A program made the translations under genes and the position numbers. DNA of 64,000 bases from Eledone cirrhosa (Eukaryota): contig OZ024742.1 of NCBI GenBank assembly GCA_964016885.1, forward strand, positions 98,828,001 through 98,892,000. Direction: 5' to 3'. A model generated the notes under the pieces. That model had not been told where the DNA came from. It worked only from the letters and a program-made list of their open reading frames with translations, and did not search any database. Each line of letters opens with the position of its first letter. Within the stretch, counting starts at the first letter, position 1. Shown here piece by piece: positions 12,125 through 58,962 of the stretch.

Positions 12125-15100
12125 TCAGTGTTTGGGCACCAAGGCCCACTCGAGCAAAGAGTTATTGTTTACGGATTCATATCCGGGTGTAGGAGGCTTA
12201 TCCGGGATTTCTTGAAGGAATTTATCCAAAGACTTCTTGAACTTGATGGGGTCTGTCTCTGCTTTGATGTGTTTTGGTGTAATGTTAAAGAGTGCAGGGC
12301 CAATTGAGGTGAAATAATTGTGCCGTATTGTTGTTATGTGATCCGAGTGGGATTTTTGACGTGGGCGGACAGCACGGGGCCCAAGCCTTGGGTGTATACT
12401 AAAGGTGATGCCAACATCATTTGGGCTAAGCTGATGGAATATTTTCCACATCATACAGATAATGTAGCGCTCTCAGCGACGTTGAAGAGAATAAAGTTTG
12501 AGCTTTTCTAATCGACCCCAATAGTCAAGGCTTGTCATGGCAACTATCTTTTTTGTAATTGACCTTTGGGGTGCTTAAACTTTCATGACATTTTATTTCG
12601 TGTGGGGTGATTACAGTGGACAACAGTATTCAAGGTGGGGTCGGGCAAATGTGGGGAAGAGAAGGACAACAGTGTGGATATCTCTCGACTGGAAAGTTCT
12701 GAGAATCCAGGAACACATTCTGCGGGCAATATCAACTTTGCTGTTTATATGAATGGCCCAGCTTATATTGTTGTCCACAATTACTCCTAGGTCTCTGATG
12801 TTATTGGAAGCCACTAGAGTTTCACCCGAAGGAAGAGAGTATGCTAGTTTCAGGGCATCCTTTTTTCCAAAGTGGATTAGCTCAAATTTATCCTCATTCA
12901 ACAGCATATTATTCATCTCTTCCCATTGGATAACAGCCAGTAGGTCTGACTGAAGGCAAGTCCGGTCACCCACCTCATTGATGACCCTTTGTACCTTGGA
13001 ATCATCTGCGAAGATTCTGATGTTACTGTGTTTGATGATGTCAGTAATGTCATTAATGTAGATGATGAAAAGAAGTGGGCCCAACACAGTGTCTTGTGGG
13101 ACGCCACTGCTGACATTGGCAGGGCTTCATTTTACTCCTTCGACTACTACATGGTGGGTTCTGCCTGTCAGGAAACATTTGATCCACTGTAGTAACCTTC
13201 CAGAGACACCAACATTGGATAGTTTTTTCAGTAGAATCTTATGATCAACCCTGTCGGGGGCCTTGCTGAAATCATGGTAGATGACATCAGTGTTGGAGCC
13301 CTCTCCCAAGGCTCTCAAAACATCTCCAAAGTGATGCAGGAGCTGCGTTAGGCAGTCCCTTCCATTACGGAACCTATGTTGGTTGGAGTTCAGCAGGCCG
13401 TTGCTTTCAAGAAAGTGGGTTATTCGTGATCTCACCACCCTCTCAAATACCTTGATAATATGAGAGGTGAGTGAGATCGAACGGTAGTTCACTGCAAGGG
13501 ACTTATTTCCATTTTAGAAAACTGGGACAACGGACTGGGACAGAAAGTTTTCAGGAATATAGCCAGTATCCAGTGAGTTCCTCCACAGATTAGCAAGAGG
13601 AGTTGCAAGTTGGTGTCGACACACCTTCAGGACACAAGCAGGGAACCTGTCGGGGCCTACTGCTGAATTGTGTTTAATTTCGTTTATCGCCGCTAAGACA
13701 TGAGGGGCGCCAAACGTTATGTCTGATATAGTGTGTTGGGGGTTAATATCACTGATACGGCCCAGATCGGCCATATCAGGGTTGCTGAAAACAGAGCAGT
13801 ATTGTTTATGCAGTATCTCGCCCATGGTTTTGGCATTGTCCTGGAGTGTGCCATTTTCATCAACTAGGGGGCCAACAGTAGAGACTTGTGTTTTTTAGCG
13901 AATGAGAAGAACACTTTGGGGTTGAGTTTGATTTTCTCAATGGCCCACCTCTCTTCAGCTATTCTCTGGTTATTGATGATGGTCATTATGCATTGCTGGA
14001 GGTTATATTTTTTTTATTCAAGCAGGGTGATAACCATTGAATGTGTGTGTTGCTGTTGGCAGTATTTTAGTGTGTTAATTTTTTTGTTTGTTCTTTTTAT
14101 TTTTCTAATAATTGTTTTTCTGTTTTGGGGGATACTGCACTTGGTTTTGTTCACAGGTTTTGATGGGGTGTGTTTTGTACATATATTTTTGACAGTGTCT
14201 ACAAAGATTTGCCAAGATGTTTTGATGTTGGTAGAAGTGCGTGCGTGTGTAAAAGACCAGTTGACATGCGATAGTTCGTTCATAATTGCATCCCAGTTGG
14301 CATTGTAGAGATCCATGTTATCAAATGGGTGGGCTGGAGAGAGGACCCTGGGATTAGCTTTCGGCTGGTAGAATCTTAGGTTACAAAGAACCATGTCATG
14401 GTCTGAGAGAGGGGTTTTTTCCACTGTAATATTATGTATAGTATTAGTGTGGTTACTAAACACTAGATCCAGAATGTTTTTATGATGCCTCGTTGGTGCA
14501 AGGACAAGTTGGGACAAGAAAAACTCATTCATGGTGTCAAGAAGTGACACGACAGCCTCTTTGTCAGTTGTTGAGGCTGTGGAATCTGGTTTCAAACTAC
14601 ATGTAGACCAATCGACACAGGGTAGATTAAAGTCTCCCATCAAAAGTATGTTGCTAGAATGGCTCTGTTTAATAAAGCATTTAACATTGTTGAGGCATTC
14701 TTTGAAACAGATTATGGTTGTTTGTGGCGGCCTATAGAGCCCAACTAATATCAGGTCATTGGCGTTATTGTGCACAGTGACTGATTCACAGTATCCATTA
14801 GAGAATGTTGTGTTACCATCTGCCGTAAAGGAATCATGCAGGAAAATGGCAGTTCCACCCTTCCTTTTGCCAACACGATTCGCACGGATGGTTGTAAAAT
14901 TTCATACTCTTAATTCGGCCTCCAAGTGGGAGTTGCCAAGGTGGGTCTCAGTAAGAATGAAGAAGGGGATGTGAAATGGATGGTTACCAACCCAATTCTC
15001 AATGAATTGGATCTTCCTTTTCTGTGCATTGATGGTTGGGCTGATACCTTGTGTATTGAGTAAGAATGTGGAGGCTAGTGTGGTGGCTGGTGACTGTTGC

Positions 15101-15138
15101 AGGGGGCATGTTTTGTGATTGTGTGTTAGTGACAGCAA
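12125..15138 (-). pseudogene. LINE ORF2 (APE endonuclease + reverse transcriptase), fragmented
   Basis: ORF pieces 14902-15138, 14014-14775, 13514-13825, 13127-13492, 12611-13087 and 12125-12454 are colinear. Confidence 0.9.
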
Positions 15139-15413
15139 GGTTGGTGTTGGGTGATGGCTAAAGTGTTTTTCTCTATCTCTTTTGCCAGGTTCATGGTTAA
15201 AAAAGAAAGATTTTTTTTTGGTTCAGGGAGCAGTTTTTGATTGGATTTGTGGTTACAACATTGGATAGGGTTGCAGTTCCCTCTTTTGTTGTTGTTTTTG
15301 TATTTGTTGTAATTGTGTCTTTGTGAAAAGACTGGAGCAGCGTTATTTTTGTTGTTGTTGTATTTGTTGTTGTTGTGATCGTGTCTTTGTGACAAGACTG
15401 GAGCGGTGTTACT

Positions 15414-15962
15414 TTAGTTGTTTTTCTTGTTGTAATCATGTCTTTGTGAGGAGACTGGAGCAGCATTACCGCAGCAGGGGATGGCTTTATTGTGGTTTGT
15501 GGGTTGGCAAGAAGCCCCTTTTCTGTTCGTGCGTTGTGTCCCAGGAAGATGAGTGAAGGGACAGTCAGTCAGCAGACATAGCCTCTCACGTTGGGAATGT
15601 TGGCAGATTTTGGGACTGCGACCTATACGTGCAGACAGCATACTTTGGTGATGGCTGACAGTGTTAGTGCGCCTAGTACCCGGTAAATGAGTAAATATAC
15701 AGACGCTACGTGTGCATAGCTTCTGACGTAGTGAGTAGCGGCATATTTGGGGGTTTCTAGTATGTGTATTGCATACAGCTCCATATAACTTTTTTATAGT
15801 TATTTTGACTATGGCATGGCTTTGGTGGTGATGACAACTGTGGTGGGAGAGGGAGCAGTGGTCCGTTACTAGCAGTTGGTGTAGGTGTGGCAGGAGATGG
15901 TGACCGTGGTGATGGTGATGGCGATAATGATGGATGAGTGAGTGGCTGAGTGATACTGTCAT
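15414..15962 (-). pseudogene. Probable LINE ORF1 fragment with two CCCH zinc fingers
   Basis: ICRYSLRQKLCTRSVCIFTH and ICQHSQRERLCLLTDCPFTH (C-x8-C-x4-C-x3-H), directly upstream of the APE domain. Confidence 0.65.
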
Positions 15963-31408: not shown

Positions 31409-32711
<1,303 letters not shown>

Positions 32712-45746: not shown

Positions 45747-46312
45747 TGCAATTACCCAGTGCATTACTGGTACTTTATTTTACGGGGTCGATAAAATAAA
45801 GTACCAGTAATGCACTGGATAATTGCTGGCCTTGTGCCAAAAGTAGAAACAATTATTGTTGTCTTATTTTGTTGGTGCCGTGATTGCCAAGGGCGGTGGA
45901 TTGGCAGTATCGGTAGAGGGTCGGACGCCATGCTTTGACGTAGAGAATTACGTCCCTTGCCATGCTGAGTTCAAATCCCGCCGAGGTTAACTATGCCTTT
46001 CATCCTTATAGGGTCGATAAAATAAGGTAATGCACTGGCTAATTGCTGGCTTTGTGCCAAACGTAGGAACAATTATTACAGTTGCATTTATCTGGATTTA
46101 TTATTATTATTGTCGTTGTTGTTGTTGTTGTTACTATGTAGATATACATTTATAATGTTTGTCATAACATTGTTGTATTTTGCCGTTCATTATTATTGTA
46201 GTATCGGTGGAGGTTAACTTTGCCTTTCATCCTTACGGGGTCGATAAAATAAAGTACCAGTAGTACACTGGAAAATTGCTGGCCTTGTGCCAATAGTAGA
46301 AACAATTATTAT
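45747..46312 (+). mobile_element. Three SINE copies: inverted 3' dimer, full-length copy, internally deleted copy
   Basis: 45747-45857 is a fold-back, 45889-46077 is full length, and about 46198-46312 is partial. Confidence 0.85.
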
Positions 46313-46319
46313 TGTGTGA

Positions 46320-47708
46320 TTAGGAATACGAAGCGGTGACAGGGGCAAAGATAAACCAGGAAAAGTCGGTGAGCTTGCAGCTCGGCACCTGGAGTTGCAA
46401 GTCCATGCCGTCCGACAGCGTCGTGGGGCGTTGGACGGACGGACCGGTTAAATTGCTCGGGGTCTGGTTCGGAATGGACCTCCAGATGGAGAAAAACTGG
46501 CGCGAGATGACGAGCAGGGTGGCCTTCTTCAACCAGAAATGGGCCGAGATGAAGCTGTCTCGGAAAGGCCGGGCGTAGGTGGCGAATACGTACATCGCAT
46601 CCGTCATCTGCTACCGCCTCACCGTCGTCCCTTGCCCCGGCCTAACTCTCACCAGAATGCAGCACCTCCTCTTCCGCTTCTTGTGGATGGTACGCGATCC
46701 CATGTTCAGACGATCCATCTGCTGTCAACACCCGTTGCGTGGAGGACTGGGCATGCCATGGCTGATGATGCGCAAACATGCGCTGAGGCTGCAACATCTC
46801 TGGTGCTTCCTTGATGGTGAACAGGTGTGGTCGCCGTTCGCCAGGCATGTTTGCCCACAGCTCGGTTCCTTGACGTAGCTGCAGTCCTGGGCCAGGAAAA
46901 GACCGAGGAATAGTACTTGGAAACTGGAATGTCTCCAGGCGCTCACCACCCTCTGCCAGCTGGGCACCAGTATCGGTGGAACATCCACCTCGGCGTTCTA
47001 TAGTGGACTAGTGGAGGGGAAGAGCGACGACGTTCTCGGGGAGATCCTGAGCGTCGAAGAACTTTCAGCCCAGGTCCTATGGTAACTTCCAGAAATCCCT
47101 GGCCTGGCAGTGCTACCGGGAAGCGTTGCCGGTTCGAGATAAGCTCTACAGCCACGGAAATGCCGTCAGCCGAGCCTGTCAGTGATGCGCGCAGAGCGAC
47201 GAAACCGTCGGGCACGCACTCGTTCAGTGCCCGAGCATTGCTGACTTGTGGAGCTATGTCGAACAGTTGCTGTCGCGTGTATTACTGATCCGGTTAACGA
47301 CTGAGTCCATTGTGCAGATGGTCTCGCCGTCTTCCTTCGAGGAGGTAGGGCAGGTGGTTTTCATCTGCCTGGTGGCCATGGCGAAAGAGATTGTGTGGTG
47401 GACAAGGTTGAAAGGGTTAAAGACAGGCACTTTCCTCTTCAGCGAATGCCTGATTAACTTTTTCAGTTTCACTTGAAGAGGAAAATCAGGGTGGAGAGGC
47501 AAGTGCTGCTTTCTGGCAAGTATGTTGAAAGGTGGGTGAATGTAGCGAGAATGATCCGAGTAAACGGGACCGCTCTGAATATACGCTTGTAGTTTGAGGA
47601 ATAGAAAAATTGAAAGAGGGCGCTTTTGTGTGGTTTTCGCCACGAGCAACCCTCAGAAGTTTTCACCGTATAGGGGAATTTTTCATTGTTTGAATTTTCA
47701 TTTTTATT

Positions 47709-47745
<37 letters not shown>

Positions 47746-47903
47746 TCTATGTCTTTTTTCTTTTTCGTTTCTTATATAAATAATAAAAATCTTTACACGC
47801 ACAAAACCCACATCGTACCGTCCTGTACCGCCCCGTGCCGTCTGTGATGTTTTTCTTGATGTCAGCCCTTGTGGCCAATAAAGAAATCATTATTATTGTG
47901 TGA
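46320..47903 (+). mobile_element. 5'-truncated Tx1/L1-clade LINE with 15-bp TSD
   Basis: GAKINQEKS, KLLGVWF, LSRKGR, HPLRGGLG and C-terminal ALPVRDKL...C..C....ETVGHALVQC, with internal stops. It ends aataaagaaatc(att)n. TSD attattattgtgtga at 46305-46319 and 47889-47903. Confidence 0.9.
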
Positions 47904-48039
47904 CATTCTTATAGTTTGTTTGTTTTTTTCTGAGCTGTCGCTGCTGTTCCTTTTAATATTATCAGCGCCATCATAATTGTCATTACTATTATTATTAATA
48001 TTATTATTATTATATTTTTATATGTTCATTGTTAAATTA

Positions 48040-48157
48040 GTCTTGCCATTGTGCACTTTTACTCGACCTTATTGTAAACCCCCACAGTCCCTGTCTTTGT
48101 ATTGTCCCCTACAATTCGGCCCTTGTGGCTAATAAATGAAATCATTATTATTATTAT
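48040..48157 (+). mobile_element. Tx1-family 3' end fragment
   Basis: ggcccttgtggctaataaatgaaatc(att)n matches the end at 47865-47897. Confidence 0.65.
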
Positions 48158-48158
48158 T

Positions 48159-48429
48159 GTTCTTTGAGTCTCAGTCATTGATGTTAGTTAACTGGAAAGT
48201 TTGTTGAAATGAATATCAAGCCACTACCTGCAGCCTCAGATATTCAGGACGTATCGGAGGGTTCTTGCTGTTCCCAGCAAGCATGCCTTTTGAAGCGTTC
48301 CAAAAAGCGTGGCGGGGCCAATTTTCTTTAACCATCCCTGGAAACTTTTTGAGATAGTACCTAGTGCGCCTATGACAATCGGGACCACTTTGACTTCATG
48401 GCAGTTCCAAATCCTTTTTACCTCCCACA
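48159..48429 (-). mobile_element. R4/Dong-like element, short 3' fragment
   Basis: WEVKRIWNCHEVKVVPIVIGALG...RYVLNI* plus the 3' UTR shared with the full-length copy. Confidence 0.9.
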
Positions 48430-48446
48430 TTAATTATTATTATGTG

Positions 48447-48755
48447 ATTGGGCCTACTCTGAGTACGTATCTGTAAATTAAAGGTGGAAAACTGGGAGAG
48501 GGCACTTGCCTTGGTGGTCAGGGTCACTGTGGCCTTTTACTGGGCTTTCTCCACAAATGTCCCTCCGAAGTCTCCCCCCTATTGGGGAATTTTTCATTGT
48601 TATTTTTTTGTTACATCCTCTGTTTTTGTTTTTTACACGCAGAAATGCCCATTTGTACCGTCCTGTATTGTCCTGCACTGTCCTTAATGTCTACTTTATG
48701 TAAACCCTCGTGGTTAATAAAGAAATCATTATTATTATTATTATTATTATTATTG
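48447..48755 (+). mobile_element. Tx1-family 3' UTR fragment
   Basis: ggggaatttttcattgt, tttacacgca.aaa, gtaccgtcctgta and aataaagaaatc(att)n are all shared with 47570-47897. Confidence 0.8.
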
Positions 48756-48760
48756 TTGTT

Positions 48761-50210
48761 ATTCCTTGAATCTCAGTCATTGATGTTGGTTAACTGGAAA
48801 GTCCGTTGGATTGAATATCAAGCCACTACCTGCAGCCTCAGATATTCAGAACGTATCGGAGGGTTCTTGCTGTTCCAAGCAAGCATGCCTTTTGAAGCGT
48901 TCCAAAAAGCGTGAAGGGGCCGATTTTCTTTAACCATCCCTGGAAACTTTTGGAGATAGTCCCCAGTGCGCCTATGACAATCGGGATCACTTTGACTTCA
49001 TGGCAGTTCCAAATCCTTTTCACCTCCCACTTTAGGACCTGGTATCGGTTAATTTTCTCCCTCTCCTTCTCTTGCACTCTCGTGTCGAATGGGCAGGCCA
49101 CATCCACAATCAGACACGATCTTTTTTCTTTGTCCACAACCACCAGGTCAGGTCTATTGTGTTCCAGTTTTTTGTCCGTCTGTATCCTAAAATCCCACAG
49201 CACCTTCACCTGATTGTTCTCCATCACCGCCTCTGGCCTATGCTCATACCATTTCTCAGAATGTGGTAAATTGTTTACTTTGCACAGGTGCCAGTGGATC
49301 ACCCTGCCCATCACATCGTGTCTCCAGCCCTTATAGTGGGTCTGGGCTAGGTGTTTACACTCGGACACAATGTGAGCCACAGTCTCCTCTCTCTCTCCAC
49401 AGATCCTGCACAGTGGGCTAGCCTCCTCCTTGTAAATATGGTGCTTCAACCACTTCGTTTTGAGGGCCTGCTCCTGCGCAGCCATTAGCATTCCTTCGTC
49501 AGCCTTTTTGAGGTCTCCTCTTCTCAACCAGTTCCATGTCTGTGGATCTCTAAATTCAGTTTTCTCAAAGAAGGTACTATGAAGGGATTTTCCCTTAAGG
49601 CTGCTCTTCCTCCTTGATGTTATTTCCTCCTTGGACATCCCCTGGCCTACTGTCCCCTCCTTCAGTACAGTTCTGAGCATTGGCTCCTTACTATAGGTCA
49701 CGTATTTGTATAGGTTGTTTTTCTCCATCTGAACACAGTCCTCTATGCTGATAAGACCTCTTCCACCCTCAGATCTCCTTAGGTAGAGTCTATCGACATC
49801 ACTCCTCTTGTGGAACATGTTGTAGATAGTCAATAGCTTCCTAGTCTTCCTATCCATTTCTTTTTGTTCAGCAACATTCCATCTCAGAATTCCCGCACTG
49901 TACCTAATAATAGACACAGCTCGGGAATTTACTGCGCTTATGGCATTTCTGCTGTTCAGATGTGACTTCAATACGCTCCTTACTCTCCGAATGTATTCAG
50001 TTCTTAACAATTCCTTCATTTTTTTTGTTCTTTATGCCATCAGCCTCCAGAACGCCCAAATACTTGTATCCTTCCTCAGAGTCAATTTCCTTTATCATCT
50101 CACCTGTTGGTATCTGGATCCCGTAACTTCTGCTCAACCTACCCCTCCTCATCACAATGACTCCACATTTACCAATACCAAACTGCATACATATATCACT
50201 GCTGAAAATA
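48761..50210 (-). mobile_element. R4/Dong-like element, 5'-truncated copy nearly identical to the full-length copy
   Basis: ORFs 48838-50019 and 49997-50188 are split by a +1 in a homopolymer; (ATT)n lies on both sides. Confidence 0.95.
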
Positions 50211-50242
50211 TTATTATTATTATTATTATTATTGCTATTGAT

Positions 50243-53200
50243 ATTCCTTGAATCTCAGTCATTGATGTTGGTTAACTGGAAAGTCCGTTGGATTGAATAT
50301 CAAGCCACTACCTGCAGCCTCAGATATTCAGGACGTATCGGAGGGTTCTTGCCGTTCCAAGCAAGCATGCCTTTTGAAGCGTTCCAAAAAGCGTGAAGGG
50401 GCCGATTTTCTTTAACCATCCCTGGAAACCTTTGGAGATAGTCCCCAGTGCGCCTATGACAATCGGGATCACTTTGACTTCATGGCAGTTCCAAATCCTT
50501 TTCACCTCCCACTTTAGGTCCTGGTATAGGTTAATTTTCTCCCTCTCCTTCTCTTGCACTCTCGTGTCGAACGGGCAGGCCACATCCACAATCAGGCACG
50601 ATCTTTTTTCTTTGTCCACAACCACCAGGTCAGGTCTATTGTGTTCCAGTTTTTTGTCCGTCTGTATCCTAAAATCCCACAGCACCTTCACCTGACTGTT
50701 CTCCATCACCGCCTCTGGCCTATGCTCATACCATTTCTCAGAATGTGGTAGATTGTTTACTTTGCACAGGTGCCAGTGGATCACCCTGCCCATCACATCG
50801 TGTCTCCAGCCCTTATAGTGGGTCTGGGCTAGGTGTTTACACTCGGACACAATGTGAGCCACAGTCTCCTCTCTCTCTCCACAGATCCTGCACAGTGGGC
50901 TAGCCTCCTCCTTGTAGATATGGTGCTTCAACCACTTCGTTTTGAGGGCCTGCTCCTGCGCAGCCATTAGCATTCCTTCTGTAGCCTTTTTGAGGTCTCC
51001 TCTTCTCAACCAGTTCCATGTCTGTGGATCTCTAAATTCAGTTTTCTCAAAGAAGGTACTATGAAGGGATTTTCCCTTAAGGCTGCTCTTCCTCCTTGAT
51101 GTTATTTCCTCCTTGGGTATCCCCTGGCCTACTGTCCCCTCCTTCAGTACAGCTCTGAGCATTGGCTCCTTACTATAGGTCACGTATTTGTATAGGTTGT
51201 TTTTCTCCATCTGAACACAGTCCTCTATGCTGATAAGACCTCTTCCACCCTCAGATCTCCTTAGGTAGAGTCTATCGACATCACTCCTCTTGTGGAACAT
51301 GTTGTAGATAGTTAATAGCTTCCTAGTCTTCCTATCCATTTCTTTTTGTTCAGCAACATTCCATCTCAGAATTCCCGCACTGTACCTAATAATAGACACA
51401 GCTCGGGAATTTACTGCGCTTATGGCATTTCTGCTGTTCAGATGTGACTTCAATTCGCTCCTTACTCTCCGAATGTATTCAGTTCTTAACAATTCCTTCA
51501 TTTTTTTGTTCTTTATGCCATCAGCCTCCAGAACGCCCAAATACTTGTATCCTTCCTCAGAGTCAATTTCCTTTATCATCTCACCTGTTGGTATCTGGAT
51601 CCCGTTACTTCTGCTCAACCTACCCCTCCTCATCACAATGACTCCACATTTACCAATACCAAACTGCATACATATATCACTGCTGAAAATACGGACAGTG
51701 TCAACAAGCACATCCAACTCCTTCTCACTTTTCCCGAAGAGCTTAAGATCGTCCATGAAGAGGAGGTGATTGATGGTAAGCTCTCCCCTTCCCAACTTGT
51801 ATCCTGCTCTCACTTTTCGCAGCATAATGGTCAAGGGCATCAGGGCAAGGACAAACAACAGAGGGGACAGGCTATCTCCCTGGAAGATACCTCTCTTGAT
51901 CTTCACGCTTCCCAAGGATACTCCAGTTGATGTCAACTCTGTCTCCCAGGACCCCATACTCCTGCCCAGCAACTGTCTGATGTTATCTGCCACCCTGAAG
52001 ATCTCCAGGCTTTTGGTGATCCAGGAATGAGGCACCATGTCAAATGCCTTTCTGTAGTCTATCCATCCCATGGCAAGATCAGTGTGTCTCCTCCTGCAAT
52101 TCCCCATTACCATCTTATCAATAAGCAACTGGTCCTTTGTACCACGTGACTTCTTTCGGCATCCTTTCTGTTCGTCCGGCAACAAGTTGTTTGTGTGGAG
52201 GTGATGGTAGATTTCCTCAGACACAATGCTCGTCAACAGTTTCCACATTACGGGCATACATGTGATAGGTCTATAGTTGGTAACATCATTACCCTTGATT
52301 CGGTCTTTCATTATCAGAACTGTGGTACCTTTTGTCAACCACTCTGGCACCTCACCCGACACCAAGCAGTCATTGAACATGGCCGTCAGCTTCGGGTGGA
52401 GGGATGTTAAATGTTTAATCCAATACCCCTGCACACCATCTGGGCCTGGTGATTTCCAGTTGGTTAGTTTTTTGGCTTGCCCCTTAAGAGTTTCAACTGT
52501 GATACTCAAATCAGTCTGTTGCTGTGCCTGCTCACCGATCTCCCTCTGTACTGTCTCAATCCACCCTGCCTGGGCATTGTGTCTATCATCCTGCTCCCAT
52601 ATTCCTCTCCAGAATGTTTTAGCTTGTTCCGCCCCAGGGATCAAGTCGGTGCCTCTTTCTTTCCCCTCAAGCTGTCCAAACAGCATCTTCTGGTTGTTGT
52701 CGAACATGCGGTTCTGTTTATACTGACTGACTCTGTTCTCGTATCGCCTGATTTTGGCACTCTTTGCTACAATGCGTTGCTTCAATTCCTCTATGATAAT
52801 ATTTAGCTTTTTACTCCTAGTTTTGTATTTTATTTCCAGTCTATTTTTAGTGCCTATGTTTTTTAGTGTCCCATTCAGTAGTGACTCAAGCTTTCCTATG
52901 TCATTTCTCATTTCCCCGATTTGCCCACTCAGTCGCTTCTTCCACCACGGCTCTGCTCTTTCTTGTCTGTTGTTTCCTCTCGCTTTTATACCAAGTAGTT
53001 TCCTCACCGTATTTGCTGTTGCTTTGAGGATATTGTTGCACTGGTGAAGACTCCTCGCCTCAAGGTATGGGATGACTTTGTTTACCTTAGCTGTTGTTTC
53101 TTTTAACTTTTTCCTGTCTACAAATCTTAGGTTCATAGGTCTCCCACTATCATTGTTCAACTCATCTACCACTAAATTTAGGATGTCAACCGAATCTTGT

Positions 53201-53890
53201 CCTAGCCCGTCAGCATTCATCTCCTCAGTGGCCGTATCTCTGTTCCAGGTATTATTTATCTCAGTATTCAGATCATTGTCTGCTTCGGGTGGTTCCTCCG
53301 CTCTCAGGACCTCCTCACCTTCATTTCCCGCCGGCTCGCTTGTCTGGCATACTACACCCGCCATCTCCAAGCCATTCTCTCTGCTCAGTTCCTCCAGTTC
53401 CAGCTCGCTTATCCACCCATTAGTTCTTATTACCCGAGCCTGCCCGGCCAATTTTTGTTCATCTAATTTATATAAACCAATCTCGTTCCAGATGTTATGC
53501 ATCCGTCTCCTGTAGCCCCTCTCCTTGGGGTTACTTTTCAGGTAGCATTGCATAACAGTTCTATTCAATTCTTTCGTCCAGTTGGTTCTGGCTCCTTTCC
53601 TTCTTCTTCTTCCTCCAACATCAGCAGTATTTCGTTGACAGTCAGGTTCCTGCTGCTGAGCCAGGGGGCACCTGTTGGGTGAGAGTCTGTCACATGACGT
53701 TCTAGTCTCCATTTCACCGTTATTCGAACTGTTTATGTTCGATATTTAAACACTCTTATCGAGGATTGGCGAATGTATGTTTACATAGCCATCTGTGGAT
53801 CCGCCATCCCACTTGGCCCTTGTGTGGCATTATCACCACGCTGTATACGGACACACATAAACAAACAAACACACGGGCAGAAAGGGCCCC
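50243..53890 (-). mobile_element. Full-length R4/Dong-like RLE non-LTR retrotransposon
   Basis: Single intact ORF, about 77-bp 3' UTR running into (TAA)n, and a structured 5' UTR; the 5' limit is approximate. Confidence 0.9.
50320..53712 (-). CDS. 1130-aa reverse transcriptase + CCHC zinc knuckle + restriction-like endonuclease (R2 superfamily, R4/Dong-like)
   Basis: WKSPGPDG, NYRPITC, WIDYRKAFDMVPH, GIFQGDSLSPLLF, LFMDDLK, YKYLG, GGRGL, CRICGEREETVAHIVSEC, RHD, RPDLVV..IVDVACP..EK..Y..L. No APE domain. Confidence 0.95.
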   Translation of the reverse strand: METRTSCDRLSPNRCPLAQQQEPDCQRNTADVGGRRRRKGARTNWTKELNRTVMQCYLKSNPKERGYRRRMHNIWNEIGLYKLDEQKLAGQARVIRTNGWISELELEELSRENGLEMAGVVCQTSEPAGNEGEEVLRAEEPPEADNDLNTEINNTWNRDTATEEMNADGLGQDSVDILNLVVDELNNDSGRPMNLRFVDRKKLKETTAKVNKVIPYLEARSLHQCNNILKATANTVRKLLGIKARGNNRQERAEPWWKKRLSGQIGEMRNDIGKLESLLNGTLKNIGTKNRLEIKYKTRSKKLNIIIEELKQRIVAKSAKIRRYENRVSQYKQNRMFDNNQKMLFGQLEGKERGTDLIPGAEQAKTFWRGIWEQDDRHNAQAGWIETVQREIGEQAQQQTDLSITVETLKGQAKKLTNWKSPGPDGVQGYWIKHLTSLHPKLTAMFNDCLVSGEVPEWLTKGTTVLIMKDRIKGNDVTNYRPITCMPVMWKLLTSIVSEEIYHHLHTNNLLPDEQKGCRKKSRGTKDQLLIDKMVMGNCRRRHTDLAMGWIDYRKAFDMVPHSWITKSLEIFRVADNIRQLLGRSMGSWETELTSTGVSLGSVKIKRGIFQGDSLSPLLFVLALMPLTIMLRKVRAGYKLGRGELTINHLLFMDDLKLFGKSEKELDVLVDTVRIFSSDICMQFGIGKCGVIVMRRGRLSRSNGIQIPTGEMIKEIDSEEGYKYLGVLEADGIKNKKMKELLRTEYIRRVRSELKSHLNSRNAISAVNSRAVSIIRYSAGILRWNVAEQKEMDRKTRKLLTIYNMFHKRSDVDRLYLRRSEGGRGLISIEDCVQMEKNNLYKYVTYSKEPMLRAVLKEGTVGQGIPKEEITSRRKSSLKGKSLHSTFFEKTEFRDPQTWNWLRRGDLKKATEGMLMAAQEQALKTKWLKHHIYKEEASPLCRICGEREETVAHIVSECKHLAQTHYKGWRHDVMGRVIHWHLCKVNNLPHSEKWYEHRPEAVMENSQVKVLWDFRIQTDKKLEHNRPDLVVVDKEKRSCLIVDVACPFDTRVQEKEREKINLYQDLKWEVKRIWNCHEVKVIPIVIGALGTISKGFQGWLKKIGPFTLFGTLQKACLLGTARTLRYVLNI

Positions 53891-54283
53891 AAAAATGAAT
53901 AAGCATAAGTTTCATTGTAATGTAGTGTTCGAATGTCTGACTTAGTTTTTGTTTTTTAAGTTTTACTTCCCCCCCCCCTCTTCTCTGTCCGTCCGCCTGC
54001 TTCTCTCTTCATTCTTATTTTCTTTACGTTTTTGGGGTTTCTTTTTTTGTTTTTGTTTTTCTCTGTTTTTCTCGTTTTTTACTGTTGTTGCTGTGCTGCT
54101 TTTGTTGTTTGTTTTTTCTTTTTTCTTTTGAGTCTATCTATATATGTTGATGCCTTCCTCTTTGTTAGTAGTAGGAATTCTATAATGTGGAAGTGGTAGC
54201 CAGCAGAGACTAGCGGCGTTGGCGATACTGACACAGTGGTGGCGGTGATGTCGATACCGAGGCAGTGGTGGCGGTGATGCGAC

Positions 54284-54353
<70 letters not shown>

Positions 54354-54374
54354 GTTGTTGTTGTTGTTATTATT

Positions 54375-56552
54375 ACTCTTTGAGTCTCAATCATTGATGT
54401 TAGTTAACTGGAAAGTTTGTTGAAATGAATATCAAGCCACTACCTGCAGCCTCAGATGTTCAGGACATATCGGAGGGTTCTTGCCGTTCCCAGCAAGTAT
54501 GCCTTTTGAAGCGTTCCAAAAAGCGTGAAGGGGCCAATTTTCTTCAACCATCCCTGGAAACTTTTGGAGATAGTCCCTAGTGCGCCTATGACAATCGGGA
54601 TCACTTTGGCTTCATGGCAGTTCCAAATCCTTTTTACCTCCCACTTTAAGTCCTGGTATCGGTTAATTTTCTCCCTCTCCTTCTCTTGCACTCTCGTGTC
54701 GAATGGGCAGGCCACATCCACAATCAGGCGTGATCTCTTTTCTTTGTCCAAAACCACCAGGTCAGGTCTATTGTGTTCCAGTTTCTTGTCCGTCTGTATC
54801 CTAAAACCCCACAGCACCTTCACCTGATCGTTTTCTATCACTGCCTCTGGCTTATGCTCATACCACTTCTCAGAAAGTGGTAAATTGTTTACTATGCATA
54901 AGTGCCAGTGGATCACCCTTCCCATCATGTCTCCAGCCCGTATAGTGAGTCTGGGCTAGGTGTTTACACTCGTATACAATGTGAGCCACAGTCTCCTCTC
55001 TCTCTCCACAAATCCTACACAGTGGGCTAGCCTCCTCCTTGTAAATGTGGTGTTTCAACCACTTCGTTTTGAAGGCCTGCTCCTGCGCAGCCATTAACAT
55101 TCCTTCTGTAGCCTTTTTAAGGTATCCTCTTTTCAACCAGTTCCATGTCTGTGGATCTCTAAATTCAGTTCTCTCAAAGAAGGTACTATGAAGGGATTTT
55201 TCCTGAAGGCTGCTCTTTCTCCTTGATGTTATTTCCTCCTTGGACATCCCCTGGCCTATTGTCCCCTCCTTCAGTACAGTTCTGAGCATTGGCTCCTTAC
55301 TATCAGTGACGTATTTGTGTAGGTTGTTTTTCTCCATCTGAACACAGTCCTCTATGCTGATAAGACCTCTTCCACCCTCAGATCTCCTTAAGTAGAGTCT
55401 ATCGACATCACTCCACTTGTGGAACATGTTGTAGATAGTCAATAGCTTCCTAGTCTTCCTATCCATTTCTTTATGTTCAGCAACATTCCATCTCAGAATT
55501 CCCGCACTGTACCTAATAATAGACACAGCTCGGGAATTTACTGCACTTATGGCATTCCTACTGTTCAGATGTGACTTTAATACACTCCTTACTCTCCGAA
55601 GGTATTCAGTTCTTATCAATTCCTTCATTTTTTTGTTCTTGATGTCATCAGCCTCCAGAACGCCCAAATACTTGTATCCTTCCTCAGAGTCAATTTCCTT
55701 TATCATCTCACCTGTTGGTTTCTGGATTCCGTTACTTCTGCTCAACTTACCCCTCCTCATCACAATGACTCCACACTTACTAATACCAAATTGTATACAT
55801 ATATCATTGCTGAAAATACGGACAGTGTCAACAAGCACATCCAACTCCTTCTCACTCTTCCCGAAGAGCTTAAGATCGTCCACGAAGAGGAGGTGATTGA
55901 TGGTAGGCCCTCCCTTTCCCAACCTGTATCCTGCTCTCACTTTTCGCAGTACACTGGTCAGGAGCATCAGGGCAAGGAGAAACAACAGAGGGGACAGACT
56001 ATCTCCCTGGAAGATACCTCTCTTGATCTTCACGCTTCCCAAGGATAATCCAGTTGATGTTAACTCTGTTTCCCAGGACTTCATACTTTTGCCCAACAAC
56101 TGTCTGATGTTATCTGCCACCTTGAAGATCTCCAGGCTTTTGGTGATCCAAGAATGAGGCACCATGTCAAATGCCTTTTTGTAGTCTATCCATCCCATGG
56201 CAAGACCAGTGTGCCTCCTCTTGCAATTTCTCATTACCATCTTATCAATAAGTAACTGGTCCTTTGTACCACGTGACTTCTTTCGGCATCCTTTCTGTTC
56301 GTCCGGTAACAAGTTGTTTGTGTGGAGGTGATGGTAGATTTCCTCAGACATAATGCCTGTCAACAGTTTCCCCATTACGGACAGACATGTGATTGGTCTA
56401 TAGTTGGTAATATCATTACCCTTGATTCCGTCTTTCATTATCAGAACTGTGGTACATTTTGTCAACCACCCTGGTACCTCACCTGACATCAAGCAGTCAT
56501 TGAACATGGTTGTCAGTTTCGGGTGGAGGGATGTTATATTTTTAATCCAATA
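54375..56552 (-). mobile_element. R4/Dong-like element, 5'-truncated, frameshifted sister subfamily
   Basis: ORFs 54870-56507 and 54452-54928 are split by a small deletion near 54925; (ATT)n tail at 54284-54374. Confidence 0.95.
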
Positions 56553-57059
56553 GGAGAAATTATCGTTAGTCGCGTATATGTGTTGACATATTTTTTCTTA
56601 ATATTGAATTTTAACATTTTGTTAAAACTAAAACTTGAGGCAATAATAATAGTAATTATTATTATTATGCTGAGATTGGTGGTGGTGGTGGTGAAATTGC
56701 CGTTATCTGGCTGTTGTGTTTAGTGTCCACAGAGGGGTGATGGGGTAGGTGGTGTATCTAGTTTCTGATGTTGGTGAAATTGCTGTTATTTGGCTGTTAT
56801 ATATAGTGTAGACAGAGGGGGTTTTCTTCCATTTATAACCATTTTCTTTTTTTGAATATAAAATGTATAATACAAAATTGAATATTTGAGCGATATAACA
56901 ATATATTATGGATCCGAAATTTTTTGGGACTCAAGCCGGATGTTTTATGTATCATTTGTACTGAGAATTGTTATTTCACAATTGATTTAAATATGTAAAA
57001 AAATCAAAACTTACGGGAGCGATTTCACGACCTTCTATCCACCATGACAGAAACACATA

Positions 57060-57099
<40 letters not shown>

Positions 57100-58900
57100 T
57101 GCATTTATCTAGATTTATGTTCATACGAGTTATCACCAAGTCACAACCAGTGACCTCAAGAGACAACAAGGTCCGCTATGTTCAAGAAAGAACATACATA
57201 TTCACACATGCATCCTTAGTGTTTAGACTTGTGATGTACTTATATTGACAGGATCTTCCTTAGTATATGGGCAATTCCCATTAGTACTATCTTTTGTATT
57301 TCTCCTATACGCGGGTTTCCTGGGATTTGCGATAAGTAGTCGTTAGACCCCTTAGGTATCATTCCCAGAGCGCCTACAACCACTGGTATTGTTTTAGTTC
57401 TCAATTTCCACATTTTTCCAATTTCTATCTCCAGGTCCTTATACTTGCTCAATTTTTCAAATGTTTTTATAGATACATTCTTGTCTATTGGAACAGACAT
57501 ATCAATTAGCAGGCATACCCTACTTTGAAAGTCCTTCAATATTATATCAGGTTATTTGCATCTATTTTTCGGTCTGTTTGGATGCTAAAGTTCCACAAGA
57601 TTGAGATGTGATCTTTTTCAAGTATGGGAGGTGGTTGATGCTCCCACCAATTCTTTTGATGGGGCAGGTCAAAATGCTTACACATTATCCAATATATGTA
57701 TTGTGCAGCTCTGTCATGCCTGTTTAGGTATTCGGTTGGAGCTATAAGACTGCACATTGAAATTATATGGTCAATGGTCTCTGGTTGTTTTTTGCATACA
57801 CGGCATAATGGCCTGCACCCATTTTTTATTATGTTGGCTTGGTAATTTTTTGTTGGCAGACACTGATCTTGTGCCGATATAATCAGTCCTTCAGTCTCCG
57901 ATTTCAGTCCAGAAGATGCCAACCACTGATAGGTTAAAGTTTTGTCAACATCAGGATTGTTAGCTCGCTCTGGGTATTTTCCATACAGAGGCTTTTCTTG
58001 CCATTTCTTAGCCAGTTTCTGTAGCAGTTCTTTCTTTGCAGTTACTTTTACCTGCTTTGCTTTTTCTGTGTTTTCCATTTCAGCAGTAAATGGGACTTCT
58101 GAAATTTGTAGTCCATTACTGTATCTTTGTGCATCTTTTGTAATGGAATATGATCTTTTGGTGCTTTCGTGTTTCAAAACGAGTTTGATCATCCAATCAT
58201 GTGATTCCCTTAGATATGTGGATAATCCAATTGTTGCAGTTTTCAACGCAATGTCTAACTGGACTAACCCACGTCCTCCTTCTTTCCTAGGGAGATATAT
58301 TCTATCTATGTCTGCCTTAGGGTGATGCATTCTGTGCACGGTTAAGAATTTTCGGATTTTTGTATCGAGCCTACGGATCTCTGTGCTTGACCAGTTGATG
58401 ACATTGTAACTGTAGGTTACTACTGGTATGGCAAGCGTGTTTATGGCATCGATCCTATTCCTTGCATTCAATTCCGTTCTTAAGATTGCTCTGACTCTGC
58501 GGTAACATTCCTTCCTTATCCTTTCCCTCATTGTCGAGTGCTTGATTCCGTCTCCTTCACAAACACCTAGATATTTGTAAGTTTTTTCTTGATCAAGCTC
58601 TCTTATCACGTTCCCCCGATCAAGATTAATGTCTGAACTCTTCAGCAGCTTTCCTCTGGTGAACGTTGCTTTGGCGCATTTATCCAGTCCAAACTCCATT
58701 TTAATGTCATCACTGAACTGCTTCACAGTGGATAATAGCCCTTGCAATTGTTCATCATTTTTTGCAAATAGTTTCAGGTCATCCATGTAGAACAGGTGAT
58801 TAATAGTTTTGTCATAGACTCTATATCCATGTTTTCTTTCATTGAGCATTTTACTTAATGGTATAAGTGCGATGCAGAATAAAAGCGGTGATAAAGAGTC

Positions 58901-58901
<1 letters not shown>
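57100..58901 (-). mobile_element. Second R4/Dong-like family, 5'-truncated, embedded in (ATT)n
   Basis: DSLSPLLF, FYMDDLK, GGRGL, CRVC..ETIDHIISMC, RHD, LIDMSVP..EKLSKYKDL and IPVVVGALG, with a frameshift near 57545. Pure (ATT)n at 57061-57099 and 58902-58961. Confidence 0.95.

Positions 58902-58962
<61 letters not shown>

What the first reader, a model, noticed from the sequence alone, without database searches (positions are those of the whole stretch)
48159..58961. Same-orientation pile-up of (TAA)n-associated R4/Dong-like retrotransposons around one intact copy
Seen: five RLE elements lie within 11 kb, all on the minus strand, each with its 3' end running into (TAA)n. They comprise two subfamilies of one family plus a distinct family at 57.1-58.9 kb. 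Copies at 48761 and 50243 share ccttgaatctc and gtccgttggattg; copies at 48159 and 54375 share ctttgagtctc and gtttgttgaaatg. Known: Dong elements of the R4 clade target TAA microsatellites. Inference: each insertion leaves or extends a (TAA)n tract that becomes the next target, so the hotspot feeds itself.
Basis: partly seen in the sequence, partly recalled or inferred. Interest (0 to 1): 0.72.

Follow-up and report, generated by a model that had tools for sequence, protein, structure and literature searches.

The report
Retrotransposons that double their own target
Five copies of jumping genes from two families sit nose-to-tail in TAA repeats here, as many copies do elsewhere in this genome; matched filled and empty sites show about twice as much repeat around an inserted copy, which likely invites the next insertion, so this is a known habit measured directly rather than a new system.

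Summary
Confirmed, with corrections. Five minus-strand Dong/R4-like LINEs are present and all five 5' junctions lie in or beside (AAT)n. The ORF-intact copy lacks about 817 nt of 5'UTR; copy D is near full length with a 2-kb internal deletion; opposite-strand Tx1-like fragments share the tracts. The pile-up is typical of this genome: 623 of 1,657 full-length heads abut another Dong tail, and a nine-copy chain turned up in a 43-region sample. The feedback idea passes a direct test in paralogous tracts of a young RTE family: empty tracts hold a median 13 triplets, singly filled sites 25 (target duplication plus an element-borne tail), and 9 of 45 filled sites carry further Dong copies against about 2 expected without feedback and 3-4 with simple doubling. 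Site quality and same-event chains are not excluded. The two Dong families (41% protein identity) share exchanged 5' heads. TAA targeting and double insertion at duplicated targets are published; this scan already noted the Tx1 co-occupancy and head sharing on other DNA of this genome. No named Dong/R4/Rex6 tree and no long-read check were possible.

The parts
58903..58959 (-). (ATA)19 tract at the 5' junction of copy E
57101..58902 (-). Copy E, Dong-like family 2, 5'-truncated inside the RT; one frameshift near 57552 at the endonuclease RPD motif
57047..57100 (-). E tail (12 AAT units, 57062-57097) plus 15 extra bases of unknown origin at D's 5' junction
56556..57046 (-). 5' head (5'UTR start) of copy D, older family-1 type; the same head type is carried by family 2
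54375..56552 (-). Body of copy D (older family-1 subfamily), joined to its head across a deletion of about 2 kb; frameshifted
54286..54374 (-). D tail: AAC/AAT units then (AAT)22; target of copy C
50243..54285 (-). Copy C, young family-1 subfamily; lacks about 817 nt of the 5'UTR
50320..53712 (-). Unbroken ORF of C, 1130 aa: Myb-like helical domain (about 45-112), RT (FMDD 652), CCHC knuckle (941-958), RPD..D restriction-like endonuclease motif (1026-1043)
50211..50242 (-). C tail and 5' junction tract of B, 7 perfect AAT units
48761..50210 (-). Copy B, 5'-truncated family-1 copy, 98.6% to C, one frameshift
48729..48760 (-). B tail, shared tail-to-tail with the plus-strand Tx1-like fragment
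48445..48730 (+). 3' fragment of a Tx1-like APE LINE, opposite orientation, ending in (ATT)n
48159..48433 (-). Copy A, 275-nt 3' fragment of the older family-1 subfamily, 5' junction in 3-4 AAT units
48031..48142 (+). Short 3' end of a related plus-strand element, tail-to-tail with A across AAT units
46324..47891 (+). Older decayed Tx1-like 3' fragment (about 80% to a full-length copy)

Best explanation
The stretch is a stack of five Dong/R4-like retrotransposon copies from two families, likely built by separate insertions over time into (AAT)n tracts, each insertion likely leaving about twice the repeat it found and so adding a target. Shown: junctions in (AAT)n on both sides; fixed orientation to the repeat strand; filled sites hold 25 triplets in two tracts against 13 in one at empty paralogous sites; duplicated flanking bases at three sites; subfamily-linked AAC units at tail starts that the empty tract lacks; neighbours of different ages in both orders. 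Inferred from the known TPRT pathway: the restriction-like endonuclease nicks the repeat, reverse transcription starts on an RNA that already carries a few AAT/AAC units, staggered second-strand cleavage duplicates target, and slippage at the 5' junction can add more. The Myb-like N-terminal domain would read the repeat (untested). Order here, inferred from divergence: D and A first, then B and C; E's place cannot be fixed. A Tx1-like APE family enters the same tracts on the other strand and would feed on and add to the same supply.
For: Junctions: 5/5 here; 55/64 positional sample; 27/29 young heads. Paralogous-site test: 664 host tracts, 45 ending in a Dong copy; empty median 13 triplets (n=24) vs 14.5 + 10.5 = 25 (n=30 of 32 singles), p=8e-9; flank bases duplicated at L174, L186, L178/L234; 9 of 45 with two or more Dong copies vs 1.6-2.2 expected without feedback (p 2e-5 to 3e-4); filled and empty hosts of the exposed subtype do not differ in age. 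Tail signature follows 3'UTR haplotype: AAT.AAC.AAT.AAC in 42 of 64 of one haplotype and 0 of 20 of the other. Genome-wide 623 of 1,657 heads abut a Dong tail (37.6%) vs 18% for no feedback and 30% for one added tract per insertion. Age-discordant neighbours in both orders.
Against: Dong may simply prefer longer alleles, which would inflate the filled-site total; the pre-insertion allele of each site is not known. Re-hits exceed even simple doubling (9 vs 3.0-4.2, p 0.003-0.02), so another factor contributes. The within-host control (two weaker tracts 3.7 kb away) was hit by Dong in 2-3 of 40 hosts vs 9 of 45 re-hits, only p 0.05-0.13. The 18% and 30% expectations rest on a 7-unit cut-off and equal tract quality. 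Nine of 64 5' junctions failed the three-unit rule; two of 32 single host insertions lost the 5' tract. No long reads span the locus.
Confidence: 0.8

Rival explanations
1. Fixed hot sites: some tracts or regions are intrinsically better targets (longer, purer, more open, better tolerated), and stacks form there without any feedback.
For: Full-length heads abut Dong tails more than equal-rate doubling predicts (37.6% vs 30%); F1 sits at 8 of 16 host sites that hold F2 but at 29 of about 462 others (p=5e-6); the youngest host subtype has no insertions at all (0 of 45 filled sites).
Against: Host tracts start near-identical (13 triplets) and equal in age within the exposed subtype; insertion measurably adds repeat; second tracts in the same host copies are hit less often (2-3 of 40), although not significantly.
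Confidence: 0.1
2. Same-event chains: the reverse transcriptase jumps from the end of one RNA to the 3' end of another, writing several copies in a single insertion.
For: Excess of three- and four-copy chains at host sites (3 of 45 vs 0.2-0.4 under doubling), one made of four short copies of 207-462 nt (L193). End-to-end template jumping is described for R2 (title seen in the reference list of PMC2881922; content recalled).
Against: Neighbours of clearly different age in both orders (99.1/93.1, 99.2/91.6, 88.4/96.4, and D/C here 93.4/98.9); opposite-strand Tx1-like copies inside stacks cannot come from one cDNA; D decayed before C arrived. It may still explain a minority, B-C included.
Confidence: 0.07
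3. Local tandem duplication, unequal exchange or mis-assembly of one or two copies.
For: It does occur in this genome: seven listed junctions with the same private variant at about 4,911-nt spacing on C2:353.61-353.64 Mb. No record spans the locus.
Against: Here every copy has a different 5' end, two families and three age classes are mixed, and B and C are each closer to copies elsewhere than to each other.
Confidence: 0.03

Closest known systems
Dong (Bombyx mori), DongAg, DongBg and Darwinula Dong1/2; R4/Dong clade (PMC3812793, PMC7998251, PMC3774820; passages read)
   Same: Single ORF with Myb-like N-terminus, RT, CCHC and restriction-like endonuclease; (TAA)n target on both sides.
   Different: About 18,400 copies in two families; measured doubling of the tract; two families with 41% protein identity share exchanged 5' heads; no HDV-like ribozyme found at the 5' end, whereas B. 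mori Dong has one.
Double insertion at a duplicated target (R1, P, jockey tandems; McGurk and Barbash 2018, PMC5932611; passages read)
   Same: [quoted passage not shown]
   Different: The target is a microsatellite that also grows by the element's own tail; stacks mix families and an opposite-strand clade; chains reach nine copies by apparently separate insertions.
Microsatellite-targeting Tx1 families Kibi (TC)n, Koshi (TTC)n, crocodilian (TTCC/TTTC)n (PMC4494074; passages read)
   Same: Two-ORF APE LINE with strong microsatellite preference (798 of 818 reverse-strand 5' ends follow ATT x3).
   Different: Target is (ATT)n, the complement of the Dong target; not among the targets listed in the passages I read.
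5'UTR recruitment and inter-family recombination in mouse L1 (Sookdeo et al. 2013, PMC3600994; abstract read)
   Same: Families gain or exchange 5'UTRs; the young head has a tandemly duplicated unit of about 320 nt.
   Different: Here the exchange is between RLE families only 41% identical in protein, and both head types are found on both families.

Membership tests
R4/Dong clade | One ORF with RT followed by CCHC knuckle and PD..D restriction-like endonuclease; no APE domain | tested here: met
   RVT_1 E=6e-23, CRICGEREETVAHIVSEC at 941, RPD..D at 1026; endonuclease stretch aligns weakly to R2
R4/Dong clade | N-terminal diverged Myb/SANT-like domain without zinc fingers (PMC7998251) | tested here: inconclusive
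   Four-helix domain, pLDDT 90-96 at residues 41-110; best fold matches mostly Myb/SANT incl. TRF, Zeste, ISWI and R2 8ibw 147-215 but only Z 5.0-5.9; Atlas Myb leads 0.76-0.85; no Pfam hit; no zinc-finger hit in the N-terminus
Dong lineage | Insertion into (TAA)n, repeat at both junctions, fixed orientation | tested here: met
   5/5 here, 55/64, 27/29; empty and filled paralogous sites
R4/Dong clade | RT phylogeny grouping with named Dong, R4 and Rex6 | not testable with these tools
   The 120 listed homologues (up to 68% identity) bear no clade names; solved R2 and L1 are distant, E about 1e-29 and 1e-14
Dong/R4 (B. mori, Ascaris) | 5' HDV-like self-cleaving ribozyme (PMC3774820; accessory feature) | tested here: inconclusive
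   No Rfam ribozyme match and no hit of my own descriptor in three heads; the descriptor had no positive control
Tx1 clade (opposite-strand partner) | Two ORFs, APE-RT-zinc knuckle ORF2, closest named relative a Tx1 protein | tested here: met
   Exo_endo_phos, RVT_1, zf-RVT on a 1099-aa ORF2; best named hit 'Transposon TX1 uncharacterized 149 kDa protein', E=5e-84, 31%; no tree built

The most novel reading that the evidence does not exclude
A filled (AAT)n site becomes more than twice as attractive as an untouched one (supra-linear feedback), so two Dong families and an opposite-strand Tx1 family jointly manufacture a large share of this genome's long AAT tracts (about 43% touch a Dong copy), and the resulting stacks are where distantly related families trade their 5' promoter heads.
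Probability: 0.3. Interest if true: 0.65.

Novelty: new variant of a known kind. Interest (0 to 1): 0.44.

Why it matters
Microsatellite-targeting retrotransposons normally hide their target-site changes inside the repeat. Paralogous tracts carried by a young RTE family give empty and filled versions of the same site in one genome, so target duplication, tail addition and re-insertion can be counted. The result turns 'the hotspot feeds itself' into numbers (13 to 25 triplets; 20% re-hit against 3.5-5%), explains how a site-specific element reaches about 18,400 copies without exhausting its target, and links microsatellite birth, retrotransposon stacks and satellite-like arrays. The locus itself is one of hundreds and has no special status.

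Tried and rejected
Random 200-kb background held only 3 long tracts and was too small for a census; replaced by whole-genome pattern counts and 90 sampled tracts. Read check: only short-read contigs were on offer, none spans the locus, joints listed are short-sided and come from repeats: no evidence either way. HDV-like ribozyme: nothing in Rfam or by descriptor. Named Dong/R4/Rex6 references: none among the hits; the Dong paper PMC309301 is not held. First tract-length script mis-measured several 5' tracts; one search replaces those lengths (the binomial tests do not depend on them). Apparent 100% matches to copy A were a 92-nt partial match and one locus fetched three times, not a segmental duplication. 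A baseline for the second host tract in empty hosts was not obtained; one search gives only a total (888). Rejected: D's junction at 56552 as a non-TAA 5' end (it is an internal deletion); C as a full-length source copy; tail-only reading of the repeat. Literature searches for self-insertion of Dong, for ATT-targeting Tx1 and for head exchange found no paper on these points for Dong; Kojima and Fujiwara 2004 and Repbase reports are not in the library, and no supplements were opened, so absence from print is not established.
Full report
Anatomy. Read on the minus strand the region is: (ATA)19, copy E (58902-57101), 12 AAT units and 15 extra bases, copy D (57046-54375), AAC/AAT units and (AAT)22, copy C (54285-50243), AAT units, copy B (50210-48761), AAT units, a plus-strand fragment (48445-48730), AAT units, copy A (48433-48159), AAT units, and two more plus-strand fragments. 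C encodes an unbroken 1130-aa protein with RT, CCHC knuckle and RPD..D endonuclease motif; its N-terminus folds into a four-helix domain whose best matches are mostly Myb/SANT domains, at modest Z 5.0-5.9. This fits the R4/Dong architecture and (TAA)n target described in PMC7998251 and PMC3812793 (passages read). The window lies at G000:C3:98,828,001-98,892,000 in a 3.0-Gb genome. Dong-R4 and L1-Tx1 are abundant, recently active LINEs in octopus (PMC13282606, PMC8967140, passages); that this genome is an octopod is my impression, not tested.

C is intact only in its ORF: 29 of 29 best relatives continue upstream, by 817 nt in the full-length copy used as reference. The 490 nt upstream of D's body is D's own 5' head: it is 95-98% identical to 29 other copies, 27 of which run on into the family-1 body within the 1.5 kb read, so D has an internal deletion of about 2 kb and its 5' junction is at E's tail. 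Thus E-D-C-B is one contiguous chain and all five 5' junctions touch (AAT)n. The plus-strand fragments belong to a two-ORF APE LINE whose best named relative is a Tx1 protein.

Genome counts. Family-1 3' ends number 12,411 and family-2 6,029 at up to one mismatch; perfect (AAT)n tracts of 7 or more units number 62,065. In 90 sampled tracts (first 30 on C1 for each end phase), 11/30, 3/30 and 7/30 are Dong tails, about 27% when weighted, and about 43% touch a Dong copy on one side. Among the first 100 young 3' ends on C1, 20 gaps are under 10 kb against 1.2 expected, all 20 same-strand. Of 1,657 full-length heads, 423 follow a family-1 tail and 200 a family-2 tail (37.6%, a lower bound). With 43,625 founder sites, no feedback predicts 18% and one added tract per insertion predicts 30%; both figures assume equal tract quality. 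In 43 regions chosen around family-1 3' ends on C1 0-35 Mb (two listed ends, held as other loci, were left out; family-2 copies enter only when near family 1) there were 66 elements: 55 of 64 visible 5' junctions had three or more AAT units within 35 nt, 26 of 64 followed another Dong directly, and the 40 chains were 25 singles, 12 pairs, two of four and one of nine. The window's chain of four is therefore not exceptional; simple doubling alone predicts about 340 sites with four or more.

Direct test of feedback. A young RTE-like family carries an internal (AAT)n tract in its 5'UTR, 664 copies by exact flank. Thirty-two end in a family-1 copy and 13 in a family-2 copy; all 45 were resolved upstream at least to the next element (two stacks that begin with a Tx1-like copy were not traced to the host's far side). 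Empty tracts hold a median 13 triplets (24 of 30 sampled; 6 were filled or had another flank); singly filled sites hold 14.5 on the 5' side and 10.5 on the 3' side, 25 in total (30 of 32; two had lost the 5' tract), p=8e-9. Three sites show 7, 13 and 19 flanking bases duplicated beyond the repeat, direct evidence of target duplication (L186, L174, L178/L234). Most tails begin with AAC units that the empty tract lacks at that place, and the pattern follows the 3'UTR haplotype (42 of 64 vs 0 of 20), so part of the tail is likely copied from the element's RNA. Thirty-two sites have one insertion, nine have two or more Dong copies (six of two, two of three, one of four) and four have a Tx1-like copy plus a Dong. 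All 45 lie in the older host subtype; the younger subtype (28 of the first 100 listed, counted by eye) has none, so I used 664 and about 478 as denominators. Filled and empty hosts of the older subtype do not differ in divergence. Nine re-hits compare with 1.6-2.2 expected without feedback (p 2e-5 to 3e-4) and 3.0-4.2 with simple doubling (p 0.003-0.02). Against over-reading: Dong may choose longer alleles; two weaker tracts in the same host copies were hit by Dong in 2-3 of 40 hosts, lower than 9 of 45 but only p 0.05-0.13; the excess over doubling may come from site quality or same-event chains.

Order of events. Family-1 neighbours differ in age in both directions (for example 88.4 then 96.4, but 99.1 then 93.1 and 99.2 then 91.6 percent to a young copy), so new copies enter the 5' remnant as well as the tail. 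Here C (99.8% to its nearest copy) sits in the tail of D (96.1%). B and C differ at 19 sites and one gap and are each closer to copies elsewhere, which argues against local duplication or mis-assembly; spanning long reads were not available.

Shared niche and head exchange. 798 of 818 reverse-strand 5' ends of one Tx1-like subfamily follow ATT x3 within 6 nt (forward counts are inflated by overlapping matches). In the positional sample 17 of 55 family-1 copies end tail-to-tail on a Tx1-like copy and 14 of 53 start against one. The two Dong families are 41% identical in protein with almost no nucleotide match in the ORF, yet 28 of 30 family-2 copies read upstream carry part or all of a head 80-89% identical to D's head. 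In a tree of 77 heads (of 80 found) two head types each occur on both families; family-2 heads are 91% identical to older family-1 heads and 95% to young ones, while the two family-1 types are 88% identical; one clade for family-1 heads is rejected, p-AU 4.5e-8. That implies at least two exchanges; that stacks are where they happen is inference.

Comparison and verdict. TAA targeting by Dong is published, as is tandem formation by double insertion at duplicated targets (PMC5932611, passages), microsatellite targeting by Tx1 families (PMC4494074, passages) and 5'UTR exchange in L1 (PMC3600994, abstract; PMC2881922, passages). My searches found no paper that measures tract growth or re-insertion for Dong, an ATT-targeting Tx1, or head exchange between Dong families, but the key subscription papers and Repbase are not held and I opened no supplements. 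Earlier notes of this scan report the same stacks, the Tx1 co-occupancy and the shared head on other DNA of this genome, and a similar stack in another genome; I reached these points before reading them, and they are not independent support. Verdict: real, works like and very probably is Dong (tree untested), the self-feeding mechanism is supported and quantified, the locus is ordinary for this genome. Interest 0.44.

Noticed in passing
G000:C2:353,611,455-353,641,018: Seven listed family-2 tail-to-head junctions at about 4,911-nt spacing sharing a private variant: a satellite-like array likely expanded by unequal exchange (or an assembly repeat). Identical junction pairs also at C1:95.27 Mb and C1:165.46 Mb.
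   Followed up: no
C1:2,795,164-2,814,178 (L269, L270): Chain of at least nine same-orientation Dong copies of both families over 19 kb, ending tail-to-tail on a Tx1-like copy.
   Followed up: partly
5' junctions of full-length copies, e.g. L020, L041, L248, L329, L331, L332, L335, L348: Runs of (AAG)n between the AAT tract and the head, which begins AAGGGAAGAAG; 7 of 74 heads by a strict rule. Likely slippage at 5' joining that seeds a new microsatellite.
   Followed up: partly
window 57018-57013 region of D's head; L020, L344: 73 of 79 heads have GTAAGT, a splice-donor match, about 45 nt from the start; two copies at one locus lack a stretch starting exactly there, but the right end is not at an obvious AG. 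Bears on the intron proposed in e1-10310237; inconclusive.
   Followed up: partly
L234, L235 (C2:367.72 Mb, 368.81 Mb): At two host sites the RTE body is missing beyond a Tx1-like copy; in L234 the Tx1-like copy joins the host's 3' tract region to its 5' tract, as if recombination between two insertions had deleted the host body.
   Followed up: no
window 45785-46311 and at least nine other places: An abundant SINE of about 195 nt, often ending in (ATT)n like the Tx1-like family, also sits in AAT tracts.
   Followed up: no
L061, L065, L066, L084-L086, L090, L115: Another unidentified element end lies directly downstream of 8 of 90 sampled AAT tracts.
   Followed up: no
window 12611-15962, minus strand: A decayed APE-type LINE (Exo_endo_phos_2 and RVT_1 fragments) with a 66-nt repeat upstream; unrelated to the stack.
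   Followed up: no
window 31409-32709: A 1.3-kb (AT)n-rich tract; the window is dense in (AT)n, (TG)n and (AG)n microsatellites.
   Followed up: no
L025, L247: Two copies have inverted 5' junctions without an AAT tract, resembling twin priming.
   Followed up: no
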